Virus record (IMG/VR): IMGVR_UViG_3300011435_000001
Coordinates: 1-64,000 of that record
Strand: one strand, 5' to 3'
Length of the DNA: 64,000 bases
Source: a virus
Lineage: Duplodnaviria > Caudoviricetes
The notes under the pieces are model-generated. The model had not been told where the DNA came from. It did not search any database and saw only the letters and a program-made list of their open reading frames with translations. Each line of letters starts with the position of its first letter. Positions within the stretch are counted from its first letter, which is position 1. A program made the position numbers and the translations under genes. Positions 3,674 to 56,047 of this stretch are shown here, piece after piece.

Positions 3674-4082
3674 TCTCAACTCGCTTCGCCCCGTCACGCG
3701 CCGCGCCATCCCGCTCTTCTACAAGAGCCCGGGAATCTGCGAGCTGCCCATCCCGGTAAGCGGGTCCGCCGTCGCGACGGAGACGAACATCGACATTGAG
3801 CCGGTGGAACGCCGGGAGGGCCCCGATAGCCTCGAGGCAATCTTGGTCGGCACGGATGTTGCCCTGAACTGGCCCTTGGTCAGCTACGTTTTCTCCTACG
3901 TGGTCTACCGCGCCACCAACCCAGAAGGACCTTTCACCCTTCTGACCAGCAATTTAAGCGAGAATTCCTACGTTGACGTGGGGCTGATTCCCGGAACTTC
4001 TTACTGGTATAAAGTAACCGGGCTGGAGCCCAACTTCGGGGAGACATTCCCGACGCCTCTAGCTCAGGTTGATGTGACATAA
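3666..4082 (+). CDS. Fibronectin type III-like virion protein
   Basis: 'LNWPLVSYVFSYVVYRATNPEGPF...YVDVGLIPGTSYWYKVTG' FN3 pattern. Confidence 0.7.
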   Translation: MNNLNSLRPVTRRAIPLFYKSPGICELPIPVSGSAVATETNIDIEPVERREGPDSLEAILVGTDVALNWPLVSYVFSYVVYRATNPEGPFTLLTSNLSENSYVDVGLIPGTSYWYKVTGLEPNFGETFPTPLAQVDVT

Positions 4083-4089
4083 ACGAAAT

Positions 4090-6630: not shown

Positions 6631-7587
6631 GTGGCTGTCATCACGGCAATTGTGGTTGCGGGGGTTGCGGCAGCGAGTGCTGTCGGAGCCGCCGCTGCTA
6701 AAAAGAAGGCTGCCGACAAGGCCGCGCACGCTCAGACCACCGCTCTCAAGGGCCAGAAGAAAATTCTCGCCAACGAACTCGGCTACGACAAGGTCCAGCA
6801 GGCCAGCGTCACCGCGGAACGCAATCGCGCGAAGGAGCGCATTCGGTTGCAGGAAGAGATTGACCCCGAGTTGGCGGAGATGCGGAAGCTCGGAAAGCAG
6901 CAGCTACTCGCCGAGGCGCAGAAGCCCAACGCGAGTCGCGAGTCCGTTCAGGTGGCGAAGCAGCTTTTCACGGAGAACATCAAGCCCGACGAAAATCTCG
7001 AGGCCCTCAAAGACCAAATCATCAAGAAGGCGCAGGCCAAGCTCGCCCAAGGAGCGACGCTGCCGCCCGAGTTTCAGGCGGAGCTGGTTCGCGCGGGCGT
7101 AAGCCAAGGCGCACAGGCCGGGCTCAAGCCGACCCCCAAAACCGTTGGCGGGCGACTCTACCAAGCGCTCGGCAGCGCAGGCGTGGCCCTCGAAGCGCAG
7201 CGGACGCAGGAAGCGCAGCAACTTGCGAACACGGCGTCGGGACTGCAAGAATCACGCGCGAAAATCCTTTCCAGTATTTTCCCGACTATTTCCACAAGCG
7301 AAGCCACGCAGCGGCAGATGGCTGCTGGCAACTTCGCCGTCGGTGACCAGTCCCTTCCACAAGCGGGCCTCACGGGCGCGGAAGCCGCAAACCTGCAAAT
7401 CAACCGGGGCAACACGCTCCTCAAGATTCGCGGGCAGAAGGGCCAAGTGCAGGCGCAGAAGGCCATCGCAGGCGGAGAAGCAAACGCAGCCTACATCAAG
7501 GCGGCTGGACAGTTCGCAACCAGTGCCCTCGGGGCCTACGGCGGCGGCGGAGCGGGCGCTCTTCCCACTACCGGACAAACCGCCTAA
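6631..7587 (+). CDS. Putative DNA ejection / internal virion protein
   Basis: GTG start; hydrophobic Ala/Gly N-terminus then Ala/Gln-rich helices, as in podoviral pilot proteins. Confidence 0.55.
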   Translation: MAVITAIVVAGVAAASAVGAAAAKKKAADKAAHAQTTALKGQKKILANELGYDKVQQASVTAERNRAKERIRLQEEIDPELAEMRKLGKQQLLAEAQKPNASRESVQVAKQLFTENIKPDENLEALKDQIIKKAQAKLAQGATLPPEFQAELVRAGVSQGAQAGLKPTPKTVGGRLYQALGSAGVALEAQRTQEAQQLANTASGLQESRAKILSSIFPTISTSEATQRQMAAGNFAVGDQSLPQAGLTGAEAANLQINRGNTLLKIRGQKGQVQAQKAIAGGEANAAYIKAAGQFATSALGAYGGGGAGALPTTGQTA

Positions 7588-7599
7588 CCAATCATTTTT

Positions 7600-9018
7600 A
7601 TGCCCGGCCTCGCCGACCTAGTCCCAGCACAAGTTCAAGCCAGCTCCGTCGGAGCTGTCACCAACCCGAACGTGGACGTGTCGTCCCTCGGGACGCTGCC
7701 CGAATTCAAAGACTTCATGGACGCCTACAAGCAGGGCGTCATCACCGCCGAAGACATCAAGAGGCGACAGGTCGTCGGGGATACCGGCTACCAAGCCGAG
7801 CGGGCGAAGAACGTGGCAGACACGGCAGTCGCCGAGCAGATTCAACTCGACGCCTCAGAGGTGCGGCCCCTCCAGCGCACGCTGGCAAAAGCACAGGCCG
7901 AGGGCGGAATCGAACAGCAGACGGTGCTGAACCAAATCAACAGCACGGACCCCGCCGTAGCCATCCCGGCGCAGCAATCTTTCTTCAAGCGGATGCGACA
8001 GAAAGAAGCCATCTCAGTTTTCGGGACGGCGGAGCCGAAACTCGAAGTCAATCAGGAAGTCAAGCCCGCGTCTTTCGAGGACTGGGCTGCTCAGCAGGTC
8101 AACAGCTATCGGCCCGGCGACAACTCACCCGAGGCGAGCGCAGACCGCGCCCGTTACTCCGAGAGCCTCGCGCGCACCGGCAAAGAGACGCCAGAGTATA
8201 AGCTTTACGTGAAGGAGACCAAGGCGCGCACCCGCCCTCTTCAGCCCGGCACGCCGGAGTATGACGACGAATTGCGCCGCGTGCTGCACGAAAAACTCAC
8301 GCACGAGAAGTTGCAGGAAATCCAACTCGAGACGCTGAAGGAATTCGGCAAGGCGCAAGCGAAAGCCGTGGGCGAGGCCCCGGTGAAACAGGCGGAGGCG
8401 CAGACCGTCGCCGCAAAAGATTTGCGGACCTCTTTCAACGGGGTCAAGGAAATCGACGACTTTGCGAAGGTGAACAACGCCTATCAGCAAATCGTCACGA
8501 TGACGGACCCGAACAGCAAGCCCGACCCAATCAAGGACCAAGGCATCGTTTTCGCGTGGATGAAAATCCTCGACCCGACGTCTGCGGTTCGCGAGACGGA
8601 ATATGCGAACGTCAAAAACGCCAAGGGTGTCCCGGACCAAATCCGGAACATGTGGAATCAGGTTGTGGACGGGCAAATTCTCACGCCCACACAGCGCCAG
8701 CAGTTGAGGGGCGCGTCCGAGTCCGTTCTAAAGGCACACACGCCCACGGAACGCATCAAGCAATATATCGAACTGGAAGAGCGCGCCGGTCTCTCACCCG
8801 GCACCGTGGTCCCCGTCGGATACCGGGAGCTGGTCTCCGGTGCGGCGCCTGCTCCTGCCGCTTCCGCTGCGGCTGTCTCCGTTTCCGTGTCTCGCCCGAC
8901 AGTCGAACAGAAGGCTGCCGCTCCGACGTATCCGAGCCTCGCCGCCGTTCCAGCCAACGTGCAGTTTTTCAAGGGAACTGACGGACAACTCCGTGTCAAT
9001 CCAAACTTCAAACCATAA
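7600..9018 (+). CDS. Putative second ejection / internal virion protein
   Basis: 472-aa helical protein between the pilot-like gene and the giant ORF. Confidence 0.45.
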   Translation: MPGLADLVPAQVQASSVGAVTNPNVDVSSLGTLPEFKDFMDAYKQGVITAEDIKRRQVVGDTGYQAERAKNVADTAVAEQIQLDASEVRPLQRTLAKAQAEGGIEQQTVLNQINSTDPAVAIPAQQSFFKRMRQKEAISVFGTAEPKLEVNQEVKPASFEDWAAQQVNSYRPGDNSPEASADRARYSESLARTGKETPEYKLYVKETKARTRPLQPGTPEYDDELRRVLHEKLTHEKLQEIQLETLKEFGKAQAKAVGEAPVKQAEAQTVAAKDLRTSFNGVKEIDDFAKVNNAYQQIVTMTDPNSKPDPIKDQGIVFAWMKILDPTSAVRETEYANVKNAKGVPDQIRNMWNQVVDGQILTPTQRQQLRGASESVLKAHTPTERIKQYIELEERAGLSPGTVVPVGYRELVSGAAPAPAASAAAVSVSVSRPTVEQKAAAPTYPSLAAVPANVQFFKGTDGQLRVNPNFKP

Positions 9019-24551: not shown

Positions 24552-24624
24552 TGGTGGGTCGGGGAGGGCTTTAACCTCCGTTTCACCGTTAAAACCGGTG
24601 CGTCTTGAATGAAACGACCGACCC
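24552..24624 (-). tRNA. tRNA-Lys(UUU), non-canonical
   Basis: 73-nt cloverleaf: GGGTCGG/CCGACCC, GTTT/AGAC, CACCG-GTTTTAA-CGGTG, GGAGG-TTAAAGC-CCTCC, A-CCA. Confidence 0.85.
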
Positions 24625-26385: not shown

Positions 26386-27468
26386 TTAGTGTCCTCCCGT
26401 GATGATGGTCTTGGTCACGCGCAGTTCTTTGTCCGACGGCAGGAACTTCTTGTAGAAGCCCCGGTCGAAAAACATGTTGAACTCCGGACGAATCCGCGTG
26501 ATGGCTCCCGTGACACTCGACATTTTGAACTCGAGGATGACGCCGCCGATTTCGCAGCGCAGGTGTTGCTTGCGCGTGAACATGTCTTGGTCCTTGAAGC
26601 CCGGCATCCCGACGATATGCACGTTGCGGTCGAAGCTGTAGCCGCTGACGTGGTAGTGGCCCTGCACGAGAATCGCGGGCTTCTCTCCGCCCTGAAAACT
26701 CTCAACCATCTTCTGGCCCTTGTAGCTTCGGGCGTAGGAGCTGCCCCCTCCCGGGTGCTGAATCTTCATGATGGCCTTGTGCTCGCCGCAGGTCAGCTCA
26801 ACGTCGCCCTCGACGTGGCCAATGTAGACCATGTCATTGCGGCCCGCGCGCTCGCAGACCATCTGCAAGTAAGCGCCGAAGTTGAATCCCTCTTTTTGCC
26901 ACCATCCTTCGTGGTCGTCGCCCGTGATGAAGTGCGTGGTGATTCCGTCCCTTTGCGGGTAGTTGCGCGCGCAGTAAAGGGCCTGCCCGTCGATTGAGGT
27001 CTCATAGACGCTGGCTCCGTTAATGCGGGGCACGTAGCCGTCGACGATGTTGCCCGCGTGAAATACGTCCTTGATGCCCTCGCGCAGGAAAAGGTCATAC
27101 TGCGCGTTGAGAGCGTCCAGCCGTTCCTCGCGGCAGCACAGATGCGTGTCTGATACCAGCCCGATTTTAGTCCAAGCGTCGCCGTCGAAAACGTCGAGCG
27201 GGATGGTTCCGAACTCCGTGGGCACCGTCTTGGCTTTTTCGATGAGAGGGCAACCGGCGGGCTTCTCTGTTGATGTGGGGGCGGGCACAGCCAGTGGCTT
27301 AGTGACGATGGCGCTCTCCCGCCTCTTCACACTGTCCGGCACGAACCGCTGGCGAGCCCGGCGAACGGCAGGCTCGCTCACGCCCCAGATGTGGGCTAGT
27401 TCTGCGTCGGTGTGTCCCGAGTCAACGTCGGCACAAAAGTTCGTGATGTCTTGCGGTGTCCACTTCAT
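26386..27468 (-). CDS. Calcineurin-like metallophosphoesterase with N-terminal HTH
   Basis: 'VSDTH', 'AGNIVDG', 'GDDHE', 'GHYH'; N-terminal 'DAELAHIWGVSEPAVRRAR'. Confidence 0.85.
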   Translation of the reverse strand: MKWTPQDITNFCADVDSGHTDAELAHIWGVSEPAVRRARQRFVPDSVKRRESAIVTKPLAVPAPTSTEKPAGCPLIEKAKTVPTEFGTIPLDVFDGDAWTKIGLVSDTHLCCREERLDALNAQYDLFLREGIKDVFHAGNIVDGYVPRINGASVYETSIDGQALYCARNYPQRDGITTHFITGDDHEGWWQKEGFNFGAYLQMVCERAGRNDMVYIGHVEGDVELTCGEHKAIMKIQHPGGGSSYARSYKGQKMVESFQGGEKPAILVQGHYHVSGYSFDRNVHIVGMPGFKDQDMFTRKQHLRCEIGGVILEFKMSSVTGAITRIRPEFNMFFDRGFYKKFLPSDKELRVTKTIITGGH

Positions 27469-28052
27469 ATTGCTGTCTTGGGTTTTCGTTTGGGTTTTTC
27501 TTCCACTACTAAAATTATTTGTTCCTGCGGCGCCTTGTCGAAGGCGAGGTCGAAGGCGAGCATGGCCTCGGTGGGCGTGTTGCCCATTCCGATGATGGCG
27601 TAGCCGGGCTTCGTGATGTCTCCGTAGTAACAGATGAAACGCGCGCCGTCGTTCGCGACGGTCGGTCGGAGCTGGACCGAGGGCTTGCTCAGGACCCGCT
27701 GGCCCTCCGTCTGCGCCTTCAGAAGCTCCACCTGCGCTGTCTGCACGGCATGAATCGAATCGTAGAGCCGGTCGTGCGTGGAGGTGTCCCAGCGCGTCTT
27801 GTCTTCTAGGAGTTCGTCGATGCGGTTGCACACGTTGGTAAACGTGACTGCCGCCGCTGCCGCTGCACCACCGTCAATTTTCCTCGGCGTGTCCTCCTCG
27901 GAGAGCTGGAAGATGGAGCGATGACCGAGGATGAAGGGGCTCAGGTTCTGGATGATGCTGTGCAGCGTCTCTAGCTGCGTGCGCGTCACCGACTCCCGCG
28001 TGGGGATAGTCGCGGGAGTCACTTTGTTCTGGCTGTTATGGTCACGGCCCAT
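27465..28052 (-). CDS. Hypothetical protein
   Basis: 195-aa ORF coupled to its neighbours. Confidence 0.55.
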   Translation of the reverse strand: MGRDHNSQNKVTPATIPTRESVTRTQLETLHSIIQNLSPFILGHRSIFQLSEEDTPRKIDGGAAAAAAVTFTNVCNRIDELLEDKTRWDTSTHDRLYDSIHAVQTAQVELLKAQTEGQRVLSKPSVQLRPTVANDGARFICYYGDITKPGYAIIGMGNTPTEAMLAFDLAFDKAPQEQIILVVEEKPKRKPKTAI

Positions 28053-28543
28053 TGTAGTAAATGTAAGGCATCTGCACAGTTATCGTCAACTAAAGGAACG
28101 GTCGGGAAAAGCTTGGCGGCAGCCCGCATCATGAAATCTTTGTCTGCCGCGCCGCTGCCCGTGGCGAACTTCTTCAGCGTGGTGACCGGGCAGCAGTCCG
28201 TCTGAATGTGGTTGGCGGCGGCGAAGAGCCACACGACTGCGCGCAGGCTGGACCAGAGTTGCGTTTGCAGAGTGTATTTGGAGAACTGGACGTCCTCGAA
28301 CACCATGAACTCGATGGCTTTTTCCGGCTCGTGGTGACCGAGGTTGTTTGCCCAAACCCCGGCTAGCTTTCGCTGAAGCGCAGGAATGCGAGGGTCGAGC
28401 CGACGGTCCAGACGCTGCTTCGCGGCCTTCTTACGCAGTTCCTCGCTGATGAGCGTCCACGTGCCTGCGGTAACCTTCCCGTCACGGGCACGGTAGGCCC
28501 AGCCACATTGCGAGCCAAGGTCGAGGGCGAGAAGGGTTTTCAC
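28019..28543 (-). CDS. RuvC-like Holliday junction resolvase
   Basis: 'LLALDLG', 'FEDV', 'LKKFATGSGAADK', 'DNCADAL'; GTG start. Confidence 0.8.
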   Translation of the reverse strand: MKTLLALDLGSQCGWAYRARDGKVTAGTWTLISEELRKKAAKQRLDRRLDPRIPALQRKLAGVWANNLGHHEPEKAIEFMVFEDVQFSKYTLQTQLWSSLRAVVWLFAAANHIQTDCCPVTTLKKFATGSGAADKDFMMRAAAKLFPTVPLVDDNCADALHLLQWAVTITARTK

Positions 28544-28935
28544 TTGAGAGACCCCGGCGGGACTTCCACCCACTTCCCGTCAGCGTCTAGGACCTCGACC
28601 TTCAAGAGCTCATCCTTGGTTTCGTTGATGACGGTTTGCTCTAGCGTCTCTTCCATCTCGATTTCATATTTTTTGAGCGCCAGCCAAAACCTCATTTTTG
28701 GCGTGGCCAGCAGTCGTTTGAATGCCGACGCCTTGTTGTCTGCTTGCGAACGGGAGTCGGAGGCCCGGCCCATCGCCCCGGACTCACGGTGAATAATCAG
28801 AACGCCTGAGGCCACCTTGTTCTTGGCCTGCCCGCCTTTGCCGCTGCCACAAAAGTAGGACACATCGAAATCTTTTCGCGTAGCGAGAGTGATTTTCTGG
28901 CGGGTGTCTTCTTTGGGCTGGTTGATGATTTTCAT
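28540..28935 (-). CDS. Release-factor (RF-1 domain) GGQ peptidyl-tRNA hydrolase-like protein
   Basis: 'FCGSGKGGQAKNKVASGVLIIHRESG...DSRSQADNK' matches the GGQ domain of ArfB/PrfH-like proteins; 131 aa. Confidence 0.85.
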   Translation of the reverse strand: MKIINQPKEDTRQKITLATRKDFDVSYFCGSGKGGQAKNKVASGVLIIHRESGAMGRASDSRSQADNKASAFKRLLATPKMRFWLALKKYEIEMEETLEQTVINETKDELLKVEVLDADGKWVEVPPGSLK

Positions 28936-29639
28936 TTGGCGGCGTTCTTCTTGAAGCTCGCGCGCAGCTTCGCGATGATTTGGACGTGCGCTGCGTGGAC
29001 TGCCTGACGCGAGACGCCCCGGGCCCGCGCAATGTCGGCCATGCTGATTTTGTCGTTGTAGATTTTCCGGAGCAGCACCTTCTCTGCCGTGGTCAACTCG
29101 CAGCGGCACTTCTTGAGAGCCTCGAGGTTCAGGCCCAGCTCTTCCTTCTCCATCACGACTTCATCGGTGGAGGGCGCGGAGTCCACGGCGGGCGTGAACT
29201 TCTGCGGCGCGCGGGTGCTTTCGCCATCGTGCGTCGTGACCGTTTCCTCCGCGTATTGCGTGTAGGTCGGAAAAACATCCGCGTGCGAGGAGGGCTCGAC
29301 GGTGTTCTTCGATTTCCACAGGCCCGCGAGCGCCCCCTTCAAAAAGGGCATCAGGTAGCGGGTGAAACGGTTGCCGCGCTCCGGGTCAAACCTGTCTATC
29401 GCATTCATCAGCGCAGAATTCGCGGCTGAAATCACTTCGTCGTCCGGAAGACGCCCACGATTTTGACGCCGGGCGAATCGGGCAGCGAATAGCAAATGGT
29501 TTCGAATGAGAAACTCCCGAGACTCAGCGTTGCCCTTTTTCGCTTTGGTGAAGAGTTCTTTTTCTTCTTCCGGCGTGGTGAGTTTGAATCGCAGGTCTTC
29601 ATTTGCCCGGTAGTAGTTGCTGTTGGTCCCGTCGCTCAT
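28932..29639 (-). CDS. sigma70-family RNA polymerase sigma factor
   Basis: 'LTTPEEEKELF', 'FLIRNHLLFAARFARR', 'LMNAIDRFDPERGNRFTRY', C-terminal HTH 'SMADIARARGVSRQAV'. Confidence 0.85.
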   Translation of the reverse strand: MSDGTNSNYYRANEDLRFKLTTPEEEKELFTKAKKGNAESREFLIRNHLLFAARFARRQNRGRLPDDEVISAANSALMNAIDRFDPERGNRFTRYLMPFLKGALAGLWKSKNTVEPSSHADVFPTYTQYAEETVTTHDGESTRAPQKFTPAVDSAPSTDEVVMEKEELGLNLEALKKCRCELTTAEKVLLRKIYNDKISMADIARARGVSRQAVHAAHVQIIAKLRASFKKNAAK

Positions 29640-37484: not shown

Positions 37485-38420
37485 TCATTGCACAGACTCT
37501 ACTTCAGTGGTTGCCGGTTGTCCAATCATCGCGGACTGAGCGAGGGTGCCCTTGTAGAATTCGGGGAAGCCGCCGCACACTCCGCGCTTGATTTGCTTGA
37601 TGAAGTGCTCGTAGAGGTGGTCGCGGATGAAGTCGCCCTCTTCGCGCTCGAGGTCCTTTTGCAGCTCGCACATGAGGGGGCCGATGTCCTCGGGCCCACC
37701 GACCAACGTGCCGTTGTCTCGCAGGTGCTGGACCGCCTTGCGCCAGCGCGCCTCTGTCTTAAGTTGCGTGACGAGATTCTGCACCACGTCATTCGTGCCG
37801 GGGTTCGCCTTCTTCCACTCGCCGCCGTGACGCTCCTTGAACTCGGGGCTCACGAACTTGCCGATGAGAATCTTTTTGTCGATTCCGAATCGGTTGTAGT
37901 TCTTGATGACGAACCCCTCCACCTTGCAGCCGCCGAGGATGGAGTCGTGGTCCAAGAAGTCCCGGATTTGGTCATCAGAGATTCCCGGCAACGCGCCGAC
38001 GTAAAAAGTGGGGACAACCTCGAGGCCGAGTCTCTCAGCCTCCGCACACTTGTCGTCATATTGGAGATACGTCTCCGGCCCGGTCATCACGTCGAAAAGG
38101 ATGATGTGTTGCTTCGGGATGCGCGCGTAGGCTTGCACGTTGTGCTTCGGCTTGCTCAGATACTCTCCGCGATACACCCAGCCGGGGCGCAAGTCGAGAG
38201 AGGCGGCGGTGTCGACAGCGTGGTTGAAAAGCTGCGGCACTGCACCGATGTGAATGTCTTGTCCCTTGGAGCGGACTGAGAGCGAGCCGTCGTGGTTGCG
38301 GCACATGCTGAACTGTGACCCGTCAACTTTCTCTTCGACGACGACGGGGCCGCACAGCAGCTCGTTTAGGTAGCGGTGTCCGAGCGTGTAGATGCTCGGG
38401 TAGGATGATAAGTTGCTCAT
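37485..38420 (-). CDS. ATP-dependent RNA ligase (Rnl2-like)
   Basis: Motif I 'EEKVDGSQ', 'YRGEY', 'LFDV', 'EGFVIK', 'GKFVSPEFKE'. Confidence 0.85.
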   Translation of the reverse strand: MSNLSSYPSIYTLGHRYLNELLCGPVVVEEKVDGSQFSMCRNHDGSLSVRSKGQDIHIGAVPQLFNHAVDTAASLDLRPGWVYRGEYLSKPKHNVQAYARIPKQHIILFDVMTGPETYLQYDDKCAEAERLGLEVVPTFYVGALPGISDDQIRDFLDHDSILGGCKVEGFVIKNYNRFGIDKKILIGKFVSPEFKERHGGEWKKANPGTNDVVQNLVTQLKTEARWRKAVQHLRDNGTLVGGPEDIGPLMCELQKDLEREEGDFIRDHLYEHFIKQIKRGVCGGFPEFYKGTLAQSAMIGQPATTEVESVQ

Positions 38421-51820: not shown

Positions 51821-52162
51821 ATGAGTGCGCGACTAGCGGCGCAGGAGGCCCACCGTGACTCCGCAGTAGAGACCCGCGTAAAAGAGCTGGCCCTCCAGTG
51901 GGTTGCCGCCCTCAACGACAGCGTGGAGAAGGCCTTCAACTCGGAGTGGCCTGTGGAGTCCGTCTCCGTCGCATCCAACCAGCTTGAGGTCGGCTCAACA
52001 AAGACGCCCTTTGAGGACGTGATAACGCTGGCTGCGGACCGTGTGACGTCGCACTTCCTAACCCAAAAGGGGACCCCCGGGTTCAACGCTTGGAAGCATG
52101 TAAGCAAATATGGCTGGGTTTCCGTTGAAGTGGTTTGGGGCACCCCGCCGAAAGCAACATGA
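51821..52162 (+). CDS. Hypothetical protein
   Basis: ORF coupled to the recombinase. Confidence 0.45.
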   Translation: MSARLAAQEAHRDSAVETRVKELALQWVAALNDSVEKAFNSEWPVESVSVASNQLEVGSTKTPFEDVITLAADRVTSHFLTQKGTPGFNAWKHVSKYGWVSVEVVWGTPPKAT

Positions 52163-52875
52163 AAGTTTTCGCCTACCTTCGCGTCAGCACCAAGGAACAA
52201 CTGGACGGCGGCGGATTTGAACGCCAGCTCGAGACCATCAAGTCACTCTGCGCGCACCGCGGCTGGACCATCGCCCGAGCCCCCTTCCGCGACCAGCAAA
52301 GTGGCGGGACGGAATTCGAAGGACGCGCCGGGCTGCAAGAAATTCTCGCCCTCGCTGGCGGGGACAACGCCCTCGGCATTGATACCGTCGTGGTGGAAAA
52401 CGCCTCTCGCATTGCGCGCGACCTGATGGTGCAGGAGATTTTTCTGAGTGAGTGCCGCAAGAGACAAATCAAAGTCGTAGCCGCCGACTGCGGCGAGGAA
52501 CTCGTCATGGCGGGTGCGGACCCCACGCGGGTTCTGATTCGACAGATTCTCGGTGCCTTGGCCCAGTGGGAAAAATCCCAGACCGTCTTGAAGCTGCAAG
52601 CGGGGCGGCGCAAGAAGGCGCGCGAGACTGGGGTGCCCTGCGGTGGTCCCGTGCCCTACGGAAAGAACCCCGGAGAACTGGCGGTCATTGCTGACATTTG
52701 GAAACTCCGCAAGGCGGGCAAGTCGATGCGAGACATCGCGAATAAAATGCAGGAACTCGGTTACCCGGCGCCCGCGGGAAAAAACTGGTATGGCGTCACG
52801 GTGCTACAGATTTTACGGCGCGAAGAGAACCGGCGCTCCGCTGAACTCAGGTTCTCAATGGACAACGACCAATGA
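52159..52875 (+). CDS. Serine recombinase (resolvase catalytic domain plus short recombinase-type C-terminus)
   Basis: 'AYLRVSTKEQ', 'RQL', 'SG...RAGL', 'VVENASRIARDL'. Confidence 0.9.
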   Translation: MKVFAYLRVSTKEQLDGGGFERQLETIKSLCAHRGWTIARAPFRDQQSGGTEFEGRAGLQEILALAGGDNALGIDTVVVENASRIARDLMVQEIFLSECRKRQIKVVAADCGEELVMAGADPTRVLIRQILGALAQWEKSQTVLKLQAGRRKKARETGVPCGGPVPYGKNPGELAVIADIWKLRKAGKSMRDIANKMQELGYPAPAGKNWYGVTVLQILRREENRRSAELRFSMDNDQ

Positions 52876-53267: not shown

Positions 53268-53546
53268 ATGAACGCAAAAATACTCACCGCTCCCAATGGC
53301 GTGCTCATTCGCGCCGACCACATCATCTCGGTGTCTCCGATTATACAGTCATCCGAACTGGGCACAGACGGCTTCGAGGTTTACGTCATCGGCTCGGAAG
53401 CACCTTACGTGTTCGCGGCGGAGTGGGCCCCGGATTGCATCAGCGAAAAGAAGCGCAAGGAGAAAACGGTGAATCTGCGGCAGGAGTTCGTGGATGCGTG
53501 GGCGGCGGCACTCGGCTGGGGGACCTTACCTTTTTCCAACAACTGA
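53268..53546 (+). CDS. Hypothetical protein
   Basis: 92-aa ORF. Confidence 0.5.
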   Translation: MNAKILTAPNGVLIRADHIISVSPIIQSSELGTDGFEVYVIGSEAPYVFAAEWAPDCISEKKRKEKTVNLRQEFVDAWAAALGWGTLPFSNN

Positions 53547-53550
53547 CGTC

Positions 53551-53790
53551 ATGTTTTCCCTCTCTGGAATCAAGCTAGCTAACCGCCCCAAGCAGGTCGC
53601 CAAGGCGCGACGCCTCGCCCGCGCGCTCAACGCGAGGGACAAGAAGCACCCGAAGAATTTTGAGAAGACGGGACGAGCAATCTGCGACGAACTGAACAGG
53701 AACGCGTCCCGGCGCGCGAAGGTTGTGTTCTACGCGGACACCCCAAAGCCCTACGACATCGAGGAGCTGAGGAAGACAAATTTTTCCTGA
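53551..53790 (+). CDS. Small basic hypothetical protein
   Basis: MFSLSGIKLANRPKQ... Confidence 0.45.
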   Translation: MFSLSGIKLANRPKQVAKARRLARALNARDKKHPKNFEKTGRAICDELNRNASRRAKVVFYADTPKPYDIEELRKTNFS

Positions 53791-53791
53791 G

Positions 53792-53821
53792 TTGACAGCG
53801 CACCAGTTCGCGCGATATGTT
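53792..53821 (+). promoter_or_regulatory. sigma70-type promoter for tRNA and ncRNA
   Basis: TTGACA-18-TATGTT, 24 nt upstream of the tRNA. Confidence 0.65.
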
Positions 53822-53844
53822 CAGGTGTAGTAGCTCTTTGAAAT

Positions 53845-53917
53845 TGCGGGGAGAATGGGATTCAAGTCAGTCTCATAAGCTGACCTCTGGTGGTTCGACT
53901 CCACCCCGCCGCAACCA
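53845..53917 (+). tRNA. tRNA with CAU anticodon (elongator Met or Ile2), atypical
   Basis: TCAGT-CTCATAA-GCTGA; GGTGG-TTCGACT-CCACC; A-CCA; acceptor with bulged G; shortened D arm. Confidence 0.8.
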
Positions 53918-53920
53918 ATT

Positions 53921-54224
53921 TGTCGGCGGAACCAGCAGCCTTTTCGGCAGCAATGGACTGCCGACAGAACAGTAGTCGAGACGGGGAGCGCGAAGTCGCG
54001 GACATCCCGCGCCCGAAAGGACGCATGGCCCCGAACCACCTCGGCAATCGCAGACGGCTCCTGCGTAATGAGAGCCGTGCAATTTTGACGCAACTCCAGC
54101 CAAAAGAGCCGACGCATCGCAACGCGAAGACCGGCAAGCGGGGAAGGTTAAGGAAGCGTTGACGGAAGATGGCTCAGCCGAGGGCTCGCGAAACCTGCGA
54201 TAGTGCGTCTCAAAAACCCCGCTT
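53921..54224 (+). ncRNA. Candidate ~300-nt structured non-coding RNA
   Basis: Several nested stems read by eye (see findings); no credible ORF. Confidence 0.55.
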
Positions 54225-54236
54225 ACTTTTGCACGC

Positions 54237-54863
54237 TTGATGTCAAGGGACCACGAGAGTCTCCAAAACTTTCCAGCCGGGCGCGATACCCGGAGCGTGT
54301 GCCAATTTATGGAAAACGAGTTTTGCAAAACTCTGGTCCCAACGGAGTGCATCTCCTATCCGCGCTCCGGTCACCACGCTCTGGTGGACCTGCTGCGTGT
54401 TTACTTCGAGGACTCCTTCGTCTACGGCGAAATCTACCGCGACCCCGCGGCCACGCTGGGCAATCTTCTCCCTCCGGTCAACTACCAGAAGAACCACGAC
54501 TTCGGCCTGCTCACTCCCGTTCTGCCCGAGCGGCAGTATCTCGTGCAGGTCCGCAACCCGCTCGAGTCCATCGAGAGCTGGGAAGTTTTCGACCGGCGTG
54601 TCGGGCACATCCCCGAGACGCACGAGGCCCGCTTGGACTTCTGGACAGCGTTTGTCAAGAAGTGGGTGTTCGCAGACATCCCGAACCGTCTTGTGGTCTG
54701 TTACGAGGACCTCGTTGGAGCCCCGCTGGAAACCTGCACGGCAGTTATCCAGTTCTTGACGAAGACGCAGAACGTCGACACAACCCATCTGTCGCGCTGC
54801 CTAGAACGCAGCCCGCTCAAGCGCCGCCGCCCGCACGTCCCGCGCCTCTACTTAAAGGCTTGA
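54237..54863 (+). CDS. Sulfotransferase-domain protein
   Basis: 5'-PSB 'ISYPRSGHH', 3'-PB 'QVRNPLESIES', 'VVCYEDLV'. Confidence 0.75.
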   Translation: MMSRDHESLQNFPAGRDTRSVCQFMENEFCKTLVPTECISYPRSGHHALVDLLRVYFEDSFVYGEIYRDPAATLGNLLPPVNYQKNHDFGLLTPVLPERQYLVQVRNPLESIESWEVFDRRVGHIPETHEARLDFWTAFVKKWVFADIPNRLVVCYEDLVGAPLETCTAVIQFLTKTQNVDTTHLSRCLERSPLKRRRPHVPRLYLKA

Positions 54864-55089: not shown

Positions 55090-55096
55090 GTCCCCC

Positions 55097-56047
55097 ATGC
55101 GTGCAACTGTTGCTGGCGCCACCGGCTTTGTTGGCCGCGCCTTGGTCAAGCACCTGCGAGAGCACGGCTCGTATGTCCGGCCCGTGAGCCGTAGTCTGGG
55201 CTTCGACCTCCGAAACCCCGACGAGGCTTACCTCGCCACGGACGACGTCGACCACGTCTTCAACCTCGCCGCGCAGGTGGGCGGCATCGGCTTCATCGAA
55301 GCGAACGACGCCGACTGCATTTTCTCTTCGGTCATAAACGCGAACCTGCTCCGCGCGTGCGCCGCATCCCGCAATCCGCCGCGCTACTTCTACGCCAGCT
55401 CGAGCTGTGTATACCCCGGAGGGCCTTACCCGATGCAGGAGCAGCAGGCGCTCCCCGCGATGCCCCACACCGGCTACGGTTGGGACAAGATTTTTTCTGA
55501 GCAAATGTGCTGGGCCTTCGAGAAGGACAAGAATGTTCCCGTGGTCGTCGCGCGATTCCACACGCTTTACGGACCCGGAGACTCGAGGCCAACGGGACGC
55601 GAGCACGTCATCGAAGCGCTGTGCAAAAAGTTTGTAGTCGCCAAGTTGAGCGGGACACGCGAAATCGAAATCTGGGGCGACGGAACGCAGACGCGCAGCT
55701 TTCTTTACATCGACGATTGCGTGGAAGGGATTTTGCGAATGGCTGACGTTCGCGGCTACGTTCGACATCTCCCCGCGCTGAACCTCGCGCACCCGAAGCC
55801 GTATTCCGTCAATGAGATTGTGGACCTGCTCGAGGAAATTTCTGGCATCCACCCCTTGCGGCACTATCAAGCGAACGCGCCGACCGGAATCCTCCACAAG
55901 ACCTCCGACAACGCGGCGCTTCGCGCCGCTCTAAACTGGGAGCCACCGACGCTTCTCCCCTACGGGCTCGAAAAGACCTACCGGGACCTTTTTGACCGGG
56001 CGCTGAGAAACGACGTGTGGCAAACTTCCCATCTCGACACCCGATGA
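55097..56047 (+). CDS. NAD-dependent epimerase, GDP-mannose 3,5-epimerase-like
   Basis: 'GATGFVG', 'NLAAQVGGIGFI', 'YASSSCVY', 'YGWDK', 'RFHTLYGP', 'IWGDGTQTRSFLYIDDCVEG'. Confidence 0.85.
   Translation: MRATVAGATGFVGRALVKHLREHGSYVRPVSRSLGFDLRNPDEAYLATDDVDHVFNLAAQVGGIGFIEANDADCIFSSVINANLLRACAASRNPPRYFYASSSCVYPGGPYPMQEQQALPAMPHTGYGWDKIFSEQMCWAFEKDKNVPVVVARFHTLYGPGDSRPTGREHVIEALCKKFVVAKLSGTREIEIWGDGTQTRSFLYIDDCVEGILRMADVRGYVRHLPALNLAHPKPYSVNEIVDLLEEISGIHPLRHYQANAPTGILHKTSDNAALRAALNWEPPTLLPYGLEKTYRDLFDRALRNDVWQTSHLDTR

What the first reader, a model, noticed from the sequence alone, without database searches (positions are those of the whole stretch)
53921..54224. Unannotated ~300-nt structured RNA directly downstream of a phage tRNA
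Seen: long hairpin TGTCGGC (53921) / GCCGACA (53960); multibranch GTCGAG (53975) / CTCGGC (54040) and CGGGG (53982) / CCCCG (54029) holding two small hairpins, one with a GAAA loop; ACGGCTC (54054) / GAGCCGT (54072); AAGCGGGG (54136) / CCCCGCTT (54217) crossing GACGCA (54111) / TGCGTC (54204), a possible pseudoknot. There is no credible ORF and it sits behind the tRNA promoter. Known: large phage ncRNAs such as GOLLD and ROOL lie next to tRNAs. Inference: this is shorter and lacks signatures I recognise, so it may be a new motif.
Basis: partly seen in the sequence, partly recalled or inferred. Interest (0 to 1): 0.8.

Follow-up and report, generated by a model that had tools for sequence, protein, structure and literature searches.

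The report
Phage tRNA-operon structured RNA modules
The stretch is non-coding and holds real, conserved folded RNAs, but it is a string of separate small RNA modules lying between two odd tRNA genes of an uncultured 72-kb phage, not one 300-nt RNA, and what the modules do is untested.

Summary
Rfam has no match and no reading frame is conserved. The stretch is not one RNA. In 9-10 related phage contigs it splits into modules that recur separately, sometimes in another order, within 0.5-1.4 kb non-coding arrays. These arrays follow a conserved sigma70-like promoter and usually begin with a tRNA-Met(CAU)-like gene.

- **M1 (53975-54045):** a 71-nt three-way-junction RNA, single copy per genome, 9 distinct sequences. 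90.8% of cells pair against 30-46% when the partners are slid, and five pairs show compensatory changes. RNAalifold finds the same fold independently.
- **MC (54087-54230):** its closing helix AAGCGGGG/CCCCGCTT is in all 10 arrays. The longer form in relatives has 12 compensatory pairs. The window's short form is mostly invariant.
- **Hairpin 53921-53966:** very stable (z -5.5).
- **M2 (54054-54078):** conserved, without covariation.
- **Proposed pseudoknot:** not conserved.
- **54231-54304:** an unannotated tRNA-Trp(CCA)-like cloverleaf follows the stretch.

Most likely this is a polycistronic precursor cut by host tRNA-processing enzymes into stable small RNAs. The closest known parallel is T4 RNAC/RNAD. 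M1 looks like a tRNA acceptor-end mimic. Function and transcript ends are untested. Earlier notes of this scan describe comparable arrays in other phages.

The parts
53792..53821 (+). Sigma70-like promoter TTGACA-18 nt-TATGTT that heads the non-coding array
   Evidence: 10 of 12 matches, 1 site found against 0.2 expected. The same TTGACA...GATATGTT is at the head of the arrays in L018, L028, L014, L026 and L023.
53833..53843 (+). Conserved leader motif GCTCTTTGAAA just 5' of the first tRNA-like gene
   Evidence: Read directly. YTCTTTGA(A/C)A precedes the first unit in all nine arrays printed. Its role is unknown.
53843..53917 (+). tRNA-Met(CAU)-like gene with a 3-bp D stem and short D loop, and an encoded ACCA
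   Evidence: ARAGORN. Rfam tRNA 23.4 bits, below the 29-bit gathering score. Cloverleaf kept in 9 relatives with 13 pairs changed on both sides (A10).
53921..53966 (+). M0: stable nested hairpin (outer stem GUCGGC/GCCGAC)
   Evidence: MFE -26.2 kcal/mol, z -5.49, 0 of 200 shuffles. L019 has the same architecture at the same place with other stem sequences: UCCGGA/UCCGGA outer, GGGCUU/AAGCCC inner (read). It is not present in the other relatives.
53975..54045 (+). M1: 71-nt three-way-junction RNA. Helices: P1 53975-80/54040-45; P1b 53982-86/54029-33; P2 53990-92/54022-24; H2 53997-54001/54007-11; H3 CCC-GAAA-GGA 54012-21. An invariant A-CCA lies at 54035-38.
   Evidence: A2 and A8, 9 distinct sequences: 90.8% of cells paired against 30-46% when slid, 5 pairs with changes on both sides, 0 of 500 shuffles reach the covariation score. 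RNAalifold gives the same fold, as does the single-sequence MFE. One copy in each of four complete or near-complete genomes.
54049..54086 (+). M2: hairpin ACGGCUC/GAGCCGU (54054-60/54072-78) followed by GCAAUUUU. The 5' flank CGCAG can alternatively pair with CUGCG in the loop.
   Evidence: 94-97% identical in L019, L018 and L015, with no covariation. In L018 and L015 it sits in a different, larger unit downstream of MC. In five relatives another covarying hairpin (GGGNNC/GNNCCC) plus a U-run holds this place after M1.
54087..54230 (+). MC: multi-branched module. A 5' extension starts with GACGCA. Helix Px is GCCG 54108-11/CGGC 54132-35. Closing helix P1 is AAGCGGGG 54136-43/CCCCGCUU 54217-24. 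The tail is ACUUUU.
   Evidence: P1, Px and the tail are present in all 10 arrays. Short form (window type, A3): 93% of cells paired against 36-45% when slid, but covariation is not above shuffles. Long form in relatives (A4): 92.9% paired, 12 pairs changed on both sides, 0 of 500 shuffles.
54111..54209 (+).
   Evidence: Not conserved. L019 reads TGTGTC and has no GACACA at the matching place. L015 and L025 lack the 5' partner. G54111 also belongs to the conserved helix Px.
54231..54304 (+). Unannotated tRNA-Trp(CCA)-like gene: acceptor GCACGCU/AGCGUGU, 3-bp D stem, anticodon loop CUCCAAA, T arm with the odd loop CGCGAUA, discriminator G, and CCA at 54302-04
   Evidence: The MFE is a complete cloverleaf. 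Homologues L028:7432-7506 and L023:2144-2218 have a canonical T loop, with 7 pairs changed on both sides (A9). ARAGORN finds it only at an 80% threshold and parses it differently. The Rfam tRNA model gives no match at E up to 10.
54309..54863 (+). First protein gene after the array (184 aa, no Pfam match). Its ATG lies 4 nt after the CCA of the last tRNA-like unit.
   Evidence: 75% identical protein in L002, 60% in L004-L007.

Best explanation
Region 53921-54224 is the middle of a non-coding RNA operon of about 520 nt (53792-54308) in a complete 72.6-kb phage genome with direct terminal repeats.

The proposed layout is as follows. A sigma70-type promoter drives a precursor that reads, in order:
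1. a tRNA-Met(CAU)-like unit;
2. hairpin M0;
3. module M1;
4. hairpin M2 plus a U-run;
5. module MC;
6. a tRNA-Trp(CCA)-like unit;
7. the first protein gene, 4 nt further on.

The modules are independent folding units. Each recurs on its own in related phages, and the units are separated by short A/U-rich spacers (CCA-AUUU, GCA-AUUUU, GCUU-ACUUUU).

I infer that host tRNA-processing nucleases cut the precursor into stable small RNAs: RNase P at the 5' ends of acceptor-like helices, and RNase E, RNase Z or exonucleases at the A/U spacers. This parallels the RNAC and RNAD species of the phage T4 tRNA region.

M1 most likely works as a mimic of the tRNA acceptor end. It has a 7-layer acceptor-like helix that opens with a mismatch and is followed by an invariant A-CCA. 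This helix stacks on P2, giving roughly the 12-13 layers of a tRNA acceptor/T minihelix, capped by two hairpins. Such an RNA could bind, and perhaps titrate, an enzyme that handles tRNA 3' ends.

Shown here: the stretch is non-coding; the modules are conserved and reshuffled; M1, the long form of MC and both flanking tRNA-like genes covary; the strand is +; the promoter is conserved.

Inferred only: transcription, the cleavage sites, the stability of the products, and any function.
For: - **Complete phage genome:**
- **No Rfam family:**
- **No conserved frame:**
- **Modules conserved separately and in different order:**
- **M1 structure:** (90.8% paired against 30-46% when slid; compensatory CGCGG/CCGCG to UGCAG/CUGCA, CCC/GGA to UGC/GCA, U-A to C-G in P1). 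M1 is single copy in four genomes.
- **M1 range:** confined to this TerL-defined clade. All true matches to two pattern scans of IMG/VR lie in contigs of this clade. The 40 matches in 185,579 species genomes are chance, since none has the partner strand.
- **MC:** the closing helix is in all 10 arrays and the long form covaries.
- **Strand:** G-U pairs are kept in M1 and MC. These would be A-C mismatches on the other strand, so the RNA is read from the + strand, the strand of the promoter and the tRNAs.
- **Promoter:** conserved.
- **Flanking units:** both are covarying cloverleaves ending in an encoded CCA.
- **M1 acceptor-like end, read from A2:** column 10 is always A, facing C or A. CGGGG/CCCCG is invariant. 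U-G pairs at columns 16-59 and 17-58 are kept in 8 of 9. A-C-C-A is invariant, and conservation stops right after it.
- **Precedent:** small RNAs of unknown role come from the T4 tRNA region (PMC3014915, PMC9697503).
Against: - No transcript, RNA end or processing data could be obtained.
- The whole stretch folds no better than shuffles (z -1.08). The window's MC folds worse than shuffles on its own (z +1.12), and its short form shows no covariation above shuffle controls.
- Unit boundaries are inferred from U-rich spacers and from where conservation ends. No canonical intrinsic terminator was found.
- In M1 the ACCA lies inside an internal loop of the covarying helix P1. M1 could therefore function as an intact long hairpin that is never trimmed to a CCA end.
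- M1 has only 9 distinct sequences from one phage clade, so several helices (P1b, P2) never vary and are untested.
- The host is unknown.
Confidence: 0.6

Rival explanations
1. The modules act in cis as a structured leader of the downstream operon (sulfotransferase-like gene, epimerase, TerL). M1 would be a ligand- or protein-binding aptamer, or a put-like antitermination RNA, that controls read-through of the hairpin-plus-U-run elements that follow it.
For: In the window there is no separate promoter between the array and ATG 54309. In every relative M1 is followed by a GC-rich hairpin and a U-run, and the window has M2 there. M1 has the look of an aptamer: invariant junction nucleotides, variable covarying peripheral stems and a GNRA loop. 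The array always lies upstream of the epimerase-TerL block.
Against: The U-run lies 3-7 nt after the hairpin stem, not adjacent to it, and the terminator scan finds none. I found no alternative pairing between M1 and the hairpin that is conserved. In L018, L015, L020 and L025 the array is followed by its own promoter-like GGTTGAC motif and a different first gene, yet M1 and/or MC are kept. L025 keeps MC and the same downstream genes without M1. No riboswitch or antiterminator family matches.
Confidence: 0.17
2. One reading: one large (~300 nt) structured RNA with a pseudoknot, a shorter analogue of GOLLD or ROOL.
For: All listed helices exist. The pieces are contiguous and co-oriented behind one promoter. 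In the window and in L019 the order M0-M1-M2-MC is the same.
Against: The whole-region fold is no better than shuffles. The blocks are separated by unalignable sequence, a 68-nt insertion and CCA+AUUUU boundaries, and M2 lies after MC in L018 and L015. No long-range pairing between modules is conserved. The pseudoknot pair is not kept. GOLLD and ROOL models give no match.
Confidence: 0.06
3. M1 (or MC) is a self-cleaving ribozyme of a new class that cuts the polycistronic transcript.
For: M1 is small, has a multi-helix junction with invariant unpaired nucleotides (UUUCGCG, ACGCAUGG, ACCA) and sits between units that must be separated.
Against: There is no match to hammerhead, twister, twister-sister, pistol, hatchet or HDV-like models at E up to 10. 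No CUGANGA core is present. Nothing marks a cleavage site. The A/U spacers and tRNA-like ends already offer host nuclease sites.
Confidence: 0.06
4. Not an RNA at all: a short protein gene, DNA-level protein-binding sites (for example for the serine recombinase at 52135-52875), or chance complementarity in GC-rich DNA.
For: Stop-free stretches of 43-104 codons exist in all six frames. A resolvase-family gene lies 1 kb upstream. GC content is about 60%.
Against: Frames are broken by +1, +2 and 68-nt indels, and similarity is frame-independent. Neither candidate ORF has a Pfam match. Compensatory changes and kept G-U pairs point to single-stranded RNA of the + strand. The L002/L008 flank shown carries no resolvase-like ORF, yet the modules are kept.
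Confidence: 0.04

Closest known systems
Phage T4 RNAC and RNAD (small stable RNAs of the T4 tRNA region)
   Same: Small non-tRNA RNAs encoded among phage tRNA genes. Their roles remain unknown (PMC3014915, PMC9697503).
   Different: No sequence or structure relation was tested or is claimed. M1 and MC belong to an unrelated, uncultured phage clade of about 72 kb. Their existence as separate RNA species is inferred, not shown.
tRNA acceptor-end mimics: tmRNA tRNA-like domain, plant-virus tRNA-like structures, acceptor/T-arm minihelices (my own knowledge)
   Same: M1 has an acceptor-like helix followed by an invariant A-CCA, and a coaxial stack of about the length of the acceptor/T-arm minihelix.
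   Different: M1 has no T loop, no G3-U70 and no tag reading frame. ARAGORN finds no tmRNA. In the DNA the CCA is followed by a covarying trailer strand (P1), so a free CCA end is only a hypothesis.
GOLLD and ROOL
   Same: Non-coding, structured, and next to tRNA genes in a phage.
   Different: No match to their Rfam models. The region is much shorter and is made of separable modules rather than one large fold.
Comparable arrays noted earlier in this scan (e1-5688424, e1-5714854 and others)
   Same: Head-to-tail small structured RNAs, some ending in CCA, embedded in phage tRNA operons and reshuffled between relatives.
   Different: Those are other phages and other modules. They are AI notes that I did not check, so they are leads only.

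Membership tests
Any Rfam 15 family (including GOLLD, ROOL, RNase P RNA, tmRNA, SRP RNA, 6S, Y RNA-like, riboswitches, small ribozymes) | Covariance-model score at or above the family's gathering score | tested here: not met
   No match at gathering thresholds in the 64-kb window. At E up to 10 in 53700-54400 there are only the tRNA (23.4 bits) and four chance-level matches. Relatives' arrays give nothing except a tRNA-Phe and chance-level hits.
Canonical tRNA (for the unit upstream, 53843-53917) | Cloverleaf with a standard D and T arm; Rfam RF00005 score of at least 29 bits | tested here: inconclusive
   ARAGORN calls tRNA-Met(CAU). Rfam gives 23.4 bits, below 29. The D stem has 3 bp and the D loop is short. 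The cloverleaf covaries in 9 relatives.
Canonical tRNA (for 54231-54304) | Cloverleaf, 7-nt anticodon loop with U33, T loop of the UUCRANY type, NCCA end | tested here: inconclusive
   Cloverleaf, loop CUCCAAA and G-CCA are met, and covariation with L028 and L023 is present. The T loop reads CGCGAUA, there is no Rfam match at E up to 10, and ARAGORN finds it only at an 80% threshold.
Single large structured ncRNA (GOLLD/ROOL-like) | One conserved architecture with collinear helices and long-range pairings across the whole element | tested here: not met
   Module order differs and modules are separated by unrelated inserts. No inter-module pairing is conserved. Whole-region z is -1.08.
Phage tRNA-region stable small RNAs (T4 RNAC/RNAD type) | Encoded in a tRNA gene cluster, co-transcribed, and accumulating as discrete stable RNAs | not testable with these tools
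   Location between two tRNA-like genes behind one promoter is met. Co-transcription and accumulation need RNA data, which could not be obtained.
Intrinsic (Rho-independent) terminator (for M2 and for the MC closing helix plus ACUUUU) | GC-rich hairpin with a short loop, directly followed by a U-run | tested here: not met
   The scan finds 0 sites in 53400-54700. M2 has an 11-nt loop and 3-4 nt before its four U residues. The MC closing helix encloses 73 nt.
tmRNA / tRNA-like acceptor mimic (for M1) | Acceptor helix ending in a free NCCA 3' end, T arm, G3-U70 (for tmRNA), tag ORF | tested here: not met
   There is an acceptor-like helix plus an invariant A-CCA, but no T arm, no G3-U70 and no tag. 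ARAGORN finds no tmRNA. A free 3' end cannot be tested with these tools. So M1 may work like an acceptor mimic but is not a member of these families.

The most novel reading that the evidence does not exclude
M1 is a new class of phage-encoded tRNA acceptor-end mimic. It would be cut out by RNase P and trimmed to its invariant A-CCA. It would then occupy or be modified by an enzyme that acts on tRNA 3' ends: a host tRNA-targeting defence toxin, the CCA-adding enzyme, a formyltransferase or a synthetase. That would protect or redirect translation during infection. MC would be a second, unrelated new structured RNA class with its own protein or ligand partner.
Probability: 0.15. Interest if true: 0.8.

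Novelty: new variant of a known kind. Interest (0 to 1): 0.55.

Why it matters
Phage tRNA clusters have been known since T4 to encode extra small RNAs whose roles are still unknown. This clade adds two well-defined, uncatalogued structured RNA motifs. M1 has clear covariation. MC has a conserved closing helix and a covarying interior in its long form. The clade also carries several tRNA-like genes that standard finders miss, so its tRNA content is under-counted. If M1 proves to be an acceptor-end decoy or a regulator, it would give a handle on what such operon-embedded RNAs do. It would also bear on how phages deal with host enzymes and defences that act on tRNA. M1 is small (71 nt), single copy and comes with a ready covariance model, which makes it easy to test.

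Tried and rejected
1. **Rfam:** at gathering and at E up to 10 on the window and on two relatives' arrays, nothing beyond tRNAs. The 15-bit 'Transposase-2' hit inside M1 (E 2.6) is chance level.
2. **RNase P RNA:** the 3' side of MC (A-rich, then CCCCGCUUA) and AGAAACCCGGCG in a relative's unit recalled the P4 strand ACAGAACCCGGCUUA (my own knowledge). No RNase P model matched, so I dropped it.
3. **tmRNA or permuted tmRNA:** none found by ARAGORN.
4. **M1 as an antisense regulator of the epimerase start:** ACGCAUGG is complementary to CCAUGCGU at 55095, and also in L018, L020 and L025. However, L019 lacks the CC, L025 lacks M1, and the segment is mostly paired within M1.
5. **phi29 pRNA-like loop-loop pairing between the M1 H2 loop and MC:** only 4-nt matches, not consistent across relatives (read).
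6. **Alternative pseudoknot:** the 4-5 nt just 5' of GGCAAGCGGGG could pair with ..GUGNGUC.. (L019 GACAC/GUGUC, L025 CCUC/GAGG, window AGAC/GUCU in a shifted register, L015 weak). Inconclusive with 5 sequences.
7. **Motif CCAATTT:** not enriched in the window (8 found, 6.5 expected). It simply marks CCA ends followed by AUUU.
8. **Wider searches for M1:** the metagenome scan found only the same contigs. The genome scans found none or chance hits. A relaxed pattern that let P1b vary found only chance hits.
9. **Relatives through the upstream 92-aa protein:** none.
10. **L004-L007:** these have coding genes, not an array, upstream of the homologous gene.
11. **Host inference from the GDP-mannose dehydratase:** uninformative.
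13. **Literature search for the invariant strings:** nothing relevant.

Full report
**Setting.** The window is the first 64 kb of a complete 72,647-bp IMG/VR virus record with direct terminal repeats. It encodes a family A-type DNA polymerase and a helicase. It also encodes a sigma70-like factor, an RF-1/GGQ-domain protein, an RNA-ligase-family protein and a GDP-mannose dehydratase. The stretch in question lies between a weak tRNA-Met(CAU) call and the first gene of a block that runs into the large terminase. The tRNA is at 53843-53913 by ARAGORN; the Rfam tRNA model gives only 23.4 bits against a gathering score of 29. The block starts at ATG 54309 with a 184-aa protein without a Pfam match, followed by an NAD-dependent epimerase.

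**The observation.** A sigma70-like promoter, TTGACA-18-TATGTT, is at 53792-53821 (10 of 12 matches; 1 site found where shuffles give 0.2).

As a single 322-nt piece the region folds no better than dinucleotide shuffles, with z -1.08 on the + strand and -0.69 on the - strand. Piece by piece the picture differs:
- The first hairpin (53918-53970) has z -5.49, with 0 of 200 shuffles as stable.
- The MFE of 53972-54049 is the fold later supported by comparison.

**Not coding.** The closest relative (L002/L008/L019, a 71.9-kb DTR genome) differs from the window by indels of +1, +2 and 68 nt inside the conserved part. Candidate ORFs on both strands therefore change frame between the two. Stop-free stretches of 40 or more codons exist in all six frames in every relative. 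Peptide similarity between relatives appears in all six frames over only about 20-30 codons, which is what nucleotide-level conservation gives. The two longest ORFs have no Pfam match.

**Relatives.** I obtained loci from 12 further viral contigs, some of them identical over this region. They came from three sources: the downstream protein, the terminase and exact-pattern scans.

All of them carry, upstream of the epimerase-terminase block, a non-coding array of 0.5-1.4 kb. In most it is headed by the same promoter, the conserved leader YTCTTTGAAA, and a tRNA-Met(CAU)-like gene with a 3-bp D stem. That cloverleaf has 13 pairs changed on both sides across nine sequences.

Units inside the arrays very often end in CCA followed by AUUU(U). 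Some are canonical tRNAs: Phe in L018, Arg in L032 and Glu in L024. Many are not.

**The stretch is modular.** BLAST between arrays shows separately conserved blocks:
- M1 (window 53968-54050) is 82-92% identical to the relatives.
- M2 (54049-54085) is 90-97% identical.
- The ends of MC (54132-54237) are also shared.

Between the blocks, the sequences do not align. L019 has a 68-nt insertion between M1 and M2. In L018/L011, M1 and MC are about 240 nt apart with a CCA+AUUUU boundary between them, and M2 lies downstream of MC inside another, larger unit. L015 has the same arrangement. This rules out one collinear 300-nt architecture.

**M1 (53975-54045).** Nine distinct sequences were aligned with MAFFT (A2). 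The structure consists of:
- P1, 6 bp;
- a bulged A;
- P1b, 5 bp;
- an internal loop;
- P2, 3 bp;
- hairpin H2;
- hairpin H3, closed by a GAAA loop.

It forms a standard pair in 90.8% of cells, against 30-46% when the 3' partners are slid by 1-3 columns. Five pairs show changes on both sides, and none of 500 shuffles reaches the observed covariation score.

RNAalifold, given only the alignment, returns the same helices. A model-based realignment gives the same counts.

The compensatory changes are plain to read:
- H2 is CGCGG/CCGCG in the window, UGCAG/CUGCA in L014, L023 and L032, and GCGGG/CCCGC in L020 and L027.
- H3 is CCC/GGA or UGC/GCA.
- P1 has U-G, U-A and C-G at one position.
- By my reading, L020 and L027 form P1 as GCCGGA/UUCGGC in a register shifted by one. 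This accounts for most of the 'unpaired' cells.

So the second inner hairpin is CGCGG/CCGCG (53997-54001/54007-54011), not the competing CGCG-AAGU-CGCG.

G-U pairs are kept, which fits an RNA of the + strand only.

M1 is single copy in four complete or near-complete genomes and absent from one 81%-complete relative. Two pattern scans of IMG/VR, a metagenome scan and a scan of 185,579 species genomes found it only in this clade. All other matches lack the partner strand or fail the model.

**M1 as an acceptor-like end.** This is my reading of A2. The nucleotide before CGGGG is always A and faces C (A in the window), so it is always a mismatch. CGGGG/CCCCG is invariant. Two U-G pairs follow in eight of nine sequences. 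After the 3' strand come one variable nucleotide and then an invariant A-C-C-A. The next one or two positions vary, and only then does the covarying 3' strand of P1 begin.

Counted from the mismatch, this is a 7-layer helix followed by A73-like A plus CCA. With the U-G pairs and P2 it makes a stack of about 12-13 layers. That is about the length of a tRNA acceptor/T-arm minihelix (established knowledge). It is a resemblance, not membership: there is no T arm, and a free CCA end is unproven.

**MC (54087-54230).** The helix AAGCGGGG/CCCCGCUU, the tail A(C/U)UUU and a helix GCCG/CGGC just 5' of it are present in all 10 arrays. The interior comes in two forms.

*Long form* (L018, L028, L023, L020, L027; a 110-119-nt interior): a multi-branch fold with GNRA-capped hairpins. 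It has 92.9% of cells paired against 37-52% when slid. Twelve pairs changed on both sides, and 0 of 500 shuffles reach any measure.

*Short form* (window, L019, L015, L025, L032; a 72-75-nt interior): 93% of cells paired against 36-45% when slid. It varies too little for covariation to exceed shuffles. Alone, the window's copy folds no better than shuffles (z +1.12).

So MC is a conserved module whose closing helix is universal. The interior of the window's copy is only provisionally drawn.

**M0, M2 and the pseudoknot.** M0 (53921-53966) is thermodynamically outstanding. In L019 it has a counterpart of the same nested architecture with different stem sequences. Other relatives have other hairpins there.

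M2's hairpin ACGGCUC/GAGCCGU is almost invariant where present, so it is untested by covariation. L018 weakens that pairing (CCGCG).

In five relatives a different, covarying hairpin (GGGNNC/GNNCCC with an (A/U)AGGA(C/U) loop) plus a U-run follows M1. The window has M2 in that slot.

L019 reads TGTGTC without a matching partner at that place, and L015 and L025 lack the 5' half. Other crossing pairings are possible (54087-92 or 54126-29 with 54204-10) but are inconsistent across five sequences.

**Flanking tRNA-like genes.** 54231-54304 has a 7-bp acceptor, a 3-bp D stem, the anticodon loop CUCCAAA (anticodon CCA, Trp), a 5-bp T stem with the odd loop CGCGAUA, a discriminator G and CCA. Homologues in L028 and L023 carry a canonical UUCAAUC T loop and differ by compensatory changes at 7 pairs.

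ARAGORN at default settings and Rfam both miss it. The start codon of the next gene lies 4 nt after its CCA.

**Explanation.** The shown facts fit a promoter-driven polycistronic precursor of independent structured RNAs, bracketed and punctuated by tRNA-like units and A/U-rich spacers. I infer that host tRNA-processing enzymes release them as stable small RNAs.

The nearest described case is T4, whose tRNA region yields RNAC and RNAD, with roles still unknown (PMC3014915, PMC9697503). Earlier notes of this scan describe comparable arrays in other phages; I treat those as leads only.

For M1 I favour an acceptor-end mimic. A cis-acting aptamer or antitermination role, a new self-cleaving ribozyme and the single-large-RNA view are the rivals, in that order. 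No RNA data could be obtained, so transcription, ends and function remain untested.

**Verdict.** These are real, uncatalogued structured RNAs, but they are separate modules of a phage tRNA operon and not one GOLLD-like RNA. I rate this a new variant of a known kind, of moderate interest.

Noticed in passing
window 24552-24624 (- strand): A 73-nt perfect cloverleaf missed by ARAGORN and by Rfam at gathering thresholds. Features: acceptor GGGUCGG/CCGACCC, anticodon loop GUUUUAA (UUU, Lys-like), T loop UUAAAGC, and A-CCA followed by AUUUUU. z is -3.73, with 0 of 200 shuffles as stable.
   Followed up: partly
It folds with z -2.82, 0 of 200 shuffles. So this phage has at least four tRNA-like genes where ARAGORN reports one.
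   Followed up: partly
window 54302-54311: The ATG of the 184-aa gene lies 4 nt after the CCA of the tRNA-Trp-like unit (CCA-AUUU-AUG), with no Shine-Dalgarno sequence. L019, L023 and L028 show the same layout. If the tRNA-like unit is cut out, the mRNA would be almost leaderless.
   Followed up: no
L011:5439-5459; L023 about 1538-1560; L019 about 6835-6863 and 7010-7036: Relatives carry a unit ending in a hairpin GGGCC-GCGAUAG-GGUCC followed by A-CCA. Read as an acceptor microhelix, this gives G1-C72, G2-C71, G3-U70 and A73, the alanine identity set of tRNA-Ala and tmRNA (my own knowledge). The window lacks this unit, but GCGAUA recurs in its MC module and in the T loop of its Trp-like unit.
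   Followed up: no
L018 about 7613-7870; L015 about 7800-8110; L032 about 3730-4085: A conserved unit of about 290 nt that contains M2 and ends ...CCGGUAGAAACCCGGCGUGUAGGGUCCCGAAAGCAUCCACCA. The AGAAACCCGGCG segment recalls the P4 3' strand of RNase P RNA (my own knowledge), but no Rfam RNase P model matches. Unexplained.
   Followed up: partly
window 37485-38420 (-), 26386-27831 (-), 28540-29109 (-), 28932-29639 (-): The phage encodes four proteins that may connect with its unusual tRNA-like RNAs. They are an RNA-ligase-family protein (PF09414, E 1.7e-15), a weak metallophosphoesterase match, a stand-alone RF-1/GGQ-domain protein (E 4.5e-13) and a sigma70-like factor.
   Followed up: no
window 55095-55102: The epimerase start region CCAUGCGU is the exact complement of M1's invariant ACGCAUGG. 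The same holds in L018, L020, L027 and L025, but not in L019, and L025 has no M1. Probably coincidence.
   Followed up: yes
L018 about 8095-8145; L015, L020 and L025 at the ends of their arrays: A second conserved promoter-like motif GGTTGAC(T/A)T...TTCTTTC precedes a small acidic protein gene (MPKEITAHDP...) downstream of the arrays. It may be read by the phage's own sigma factor. It is absent between the array and the next gene in the window.
   Followed up: no
window 52135-52875: A 246-aa ORF with a resolvase N-terminal domain and the start of a Recombinase domain. This is short for a large serine integrase, and the phage otherwise looks lytic.
   Followed up: no
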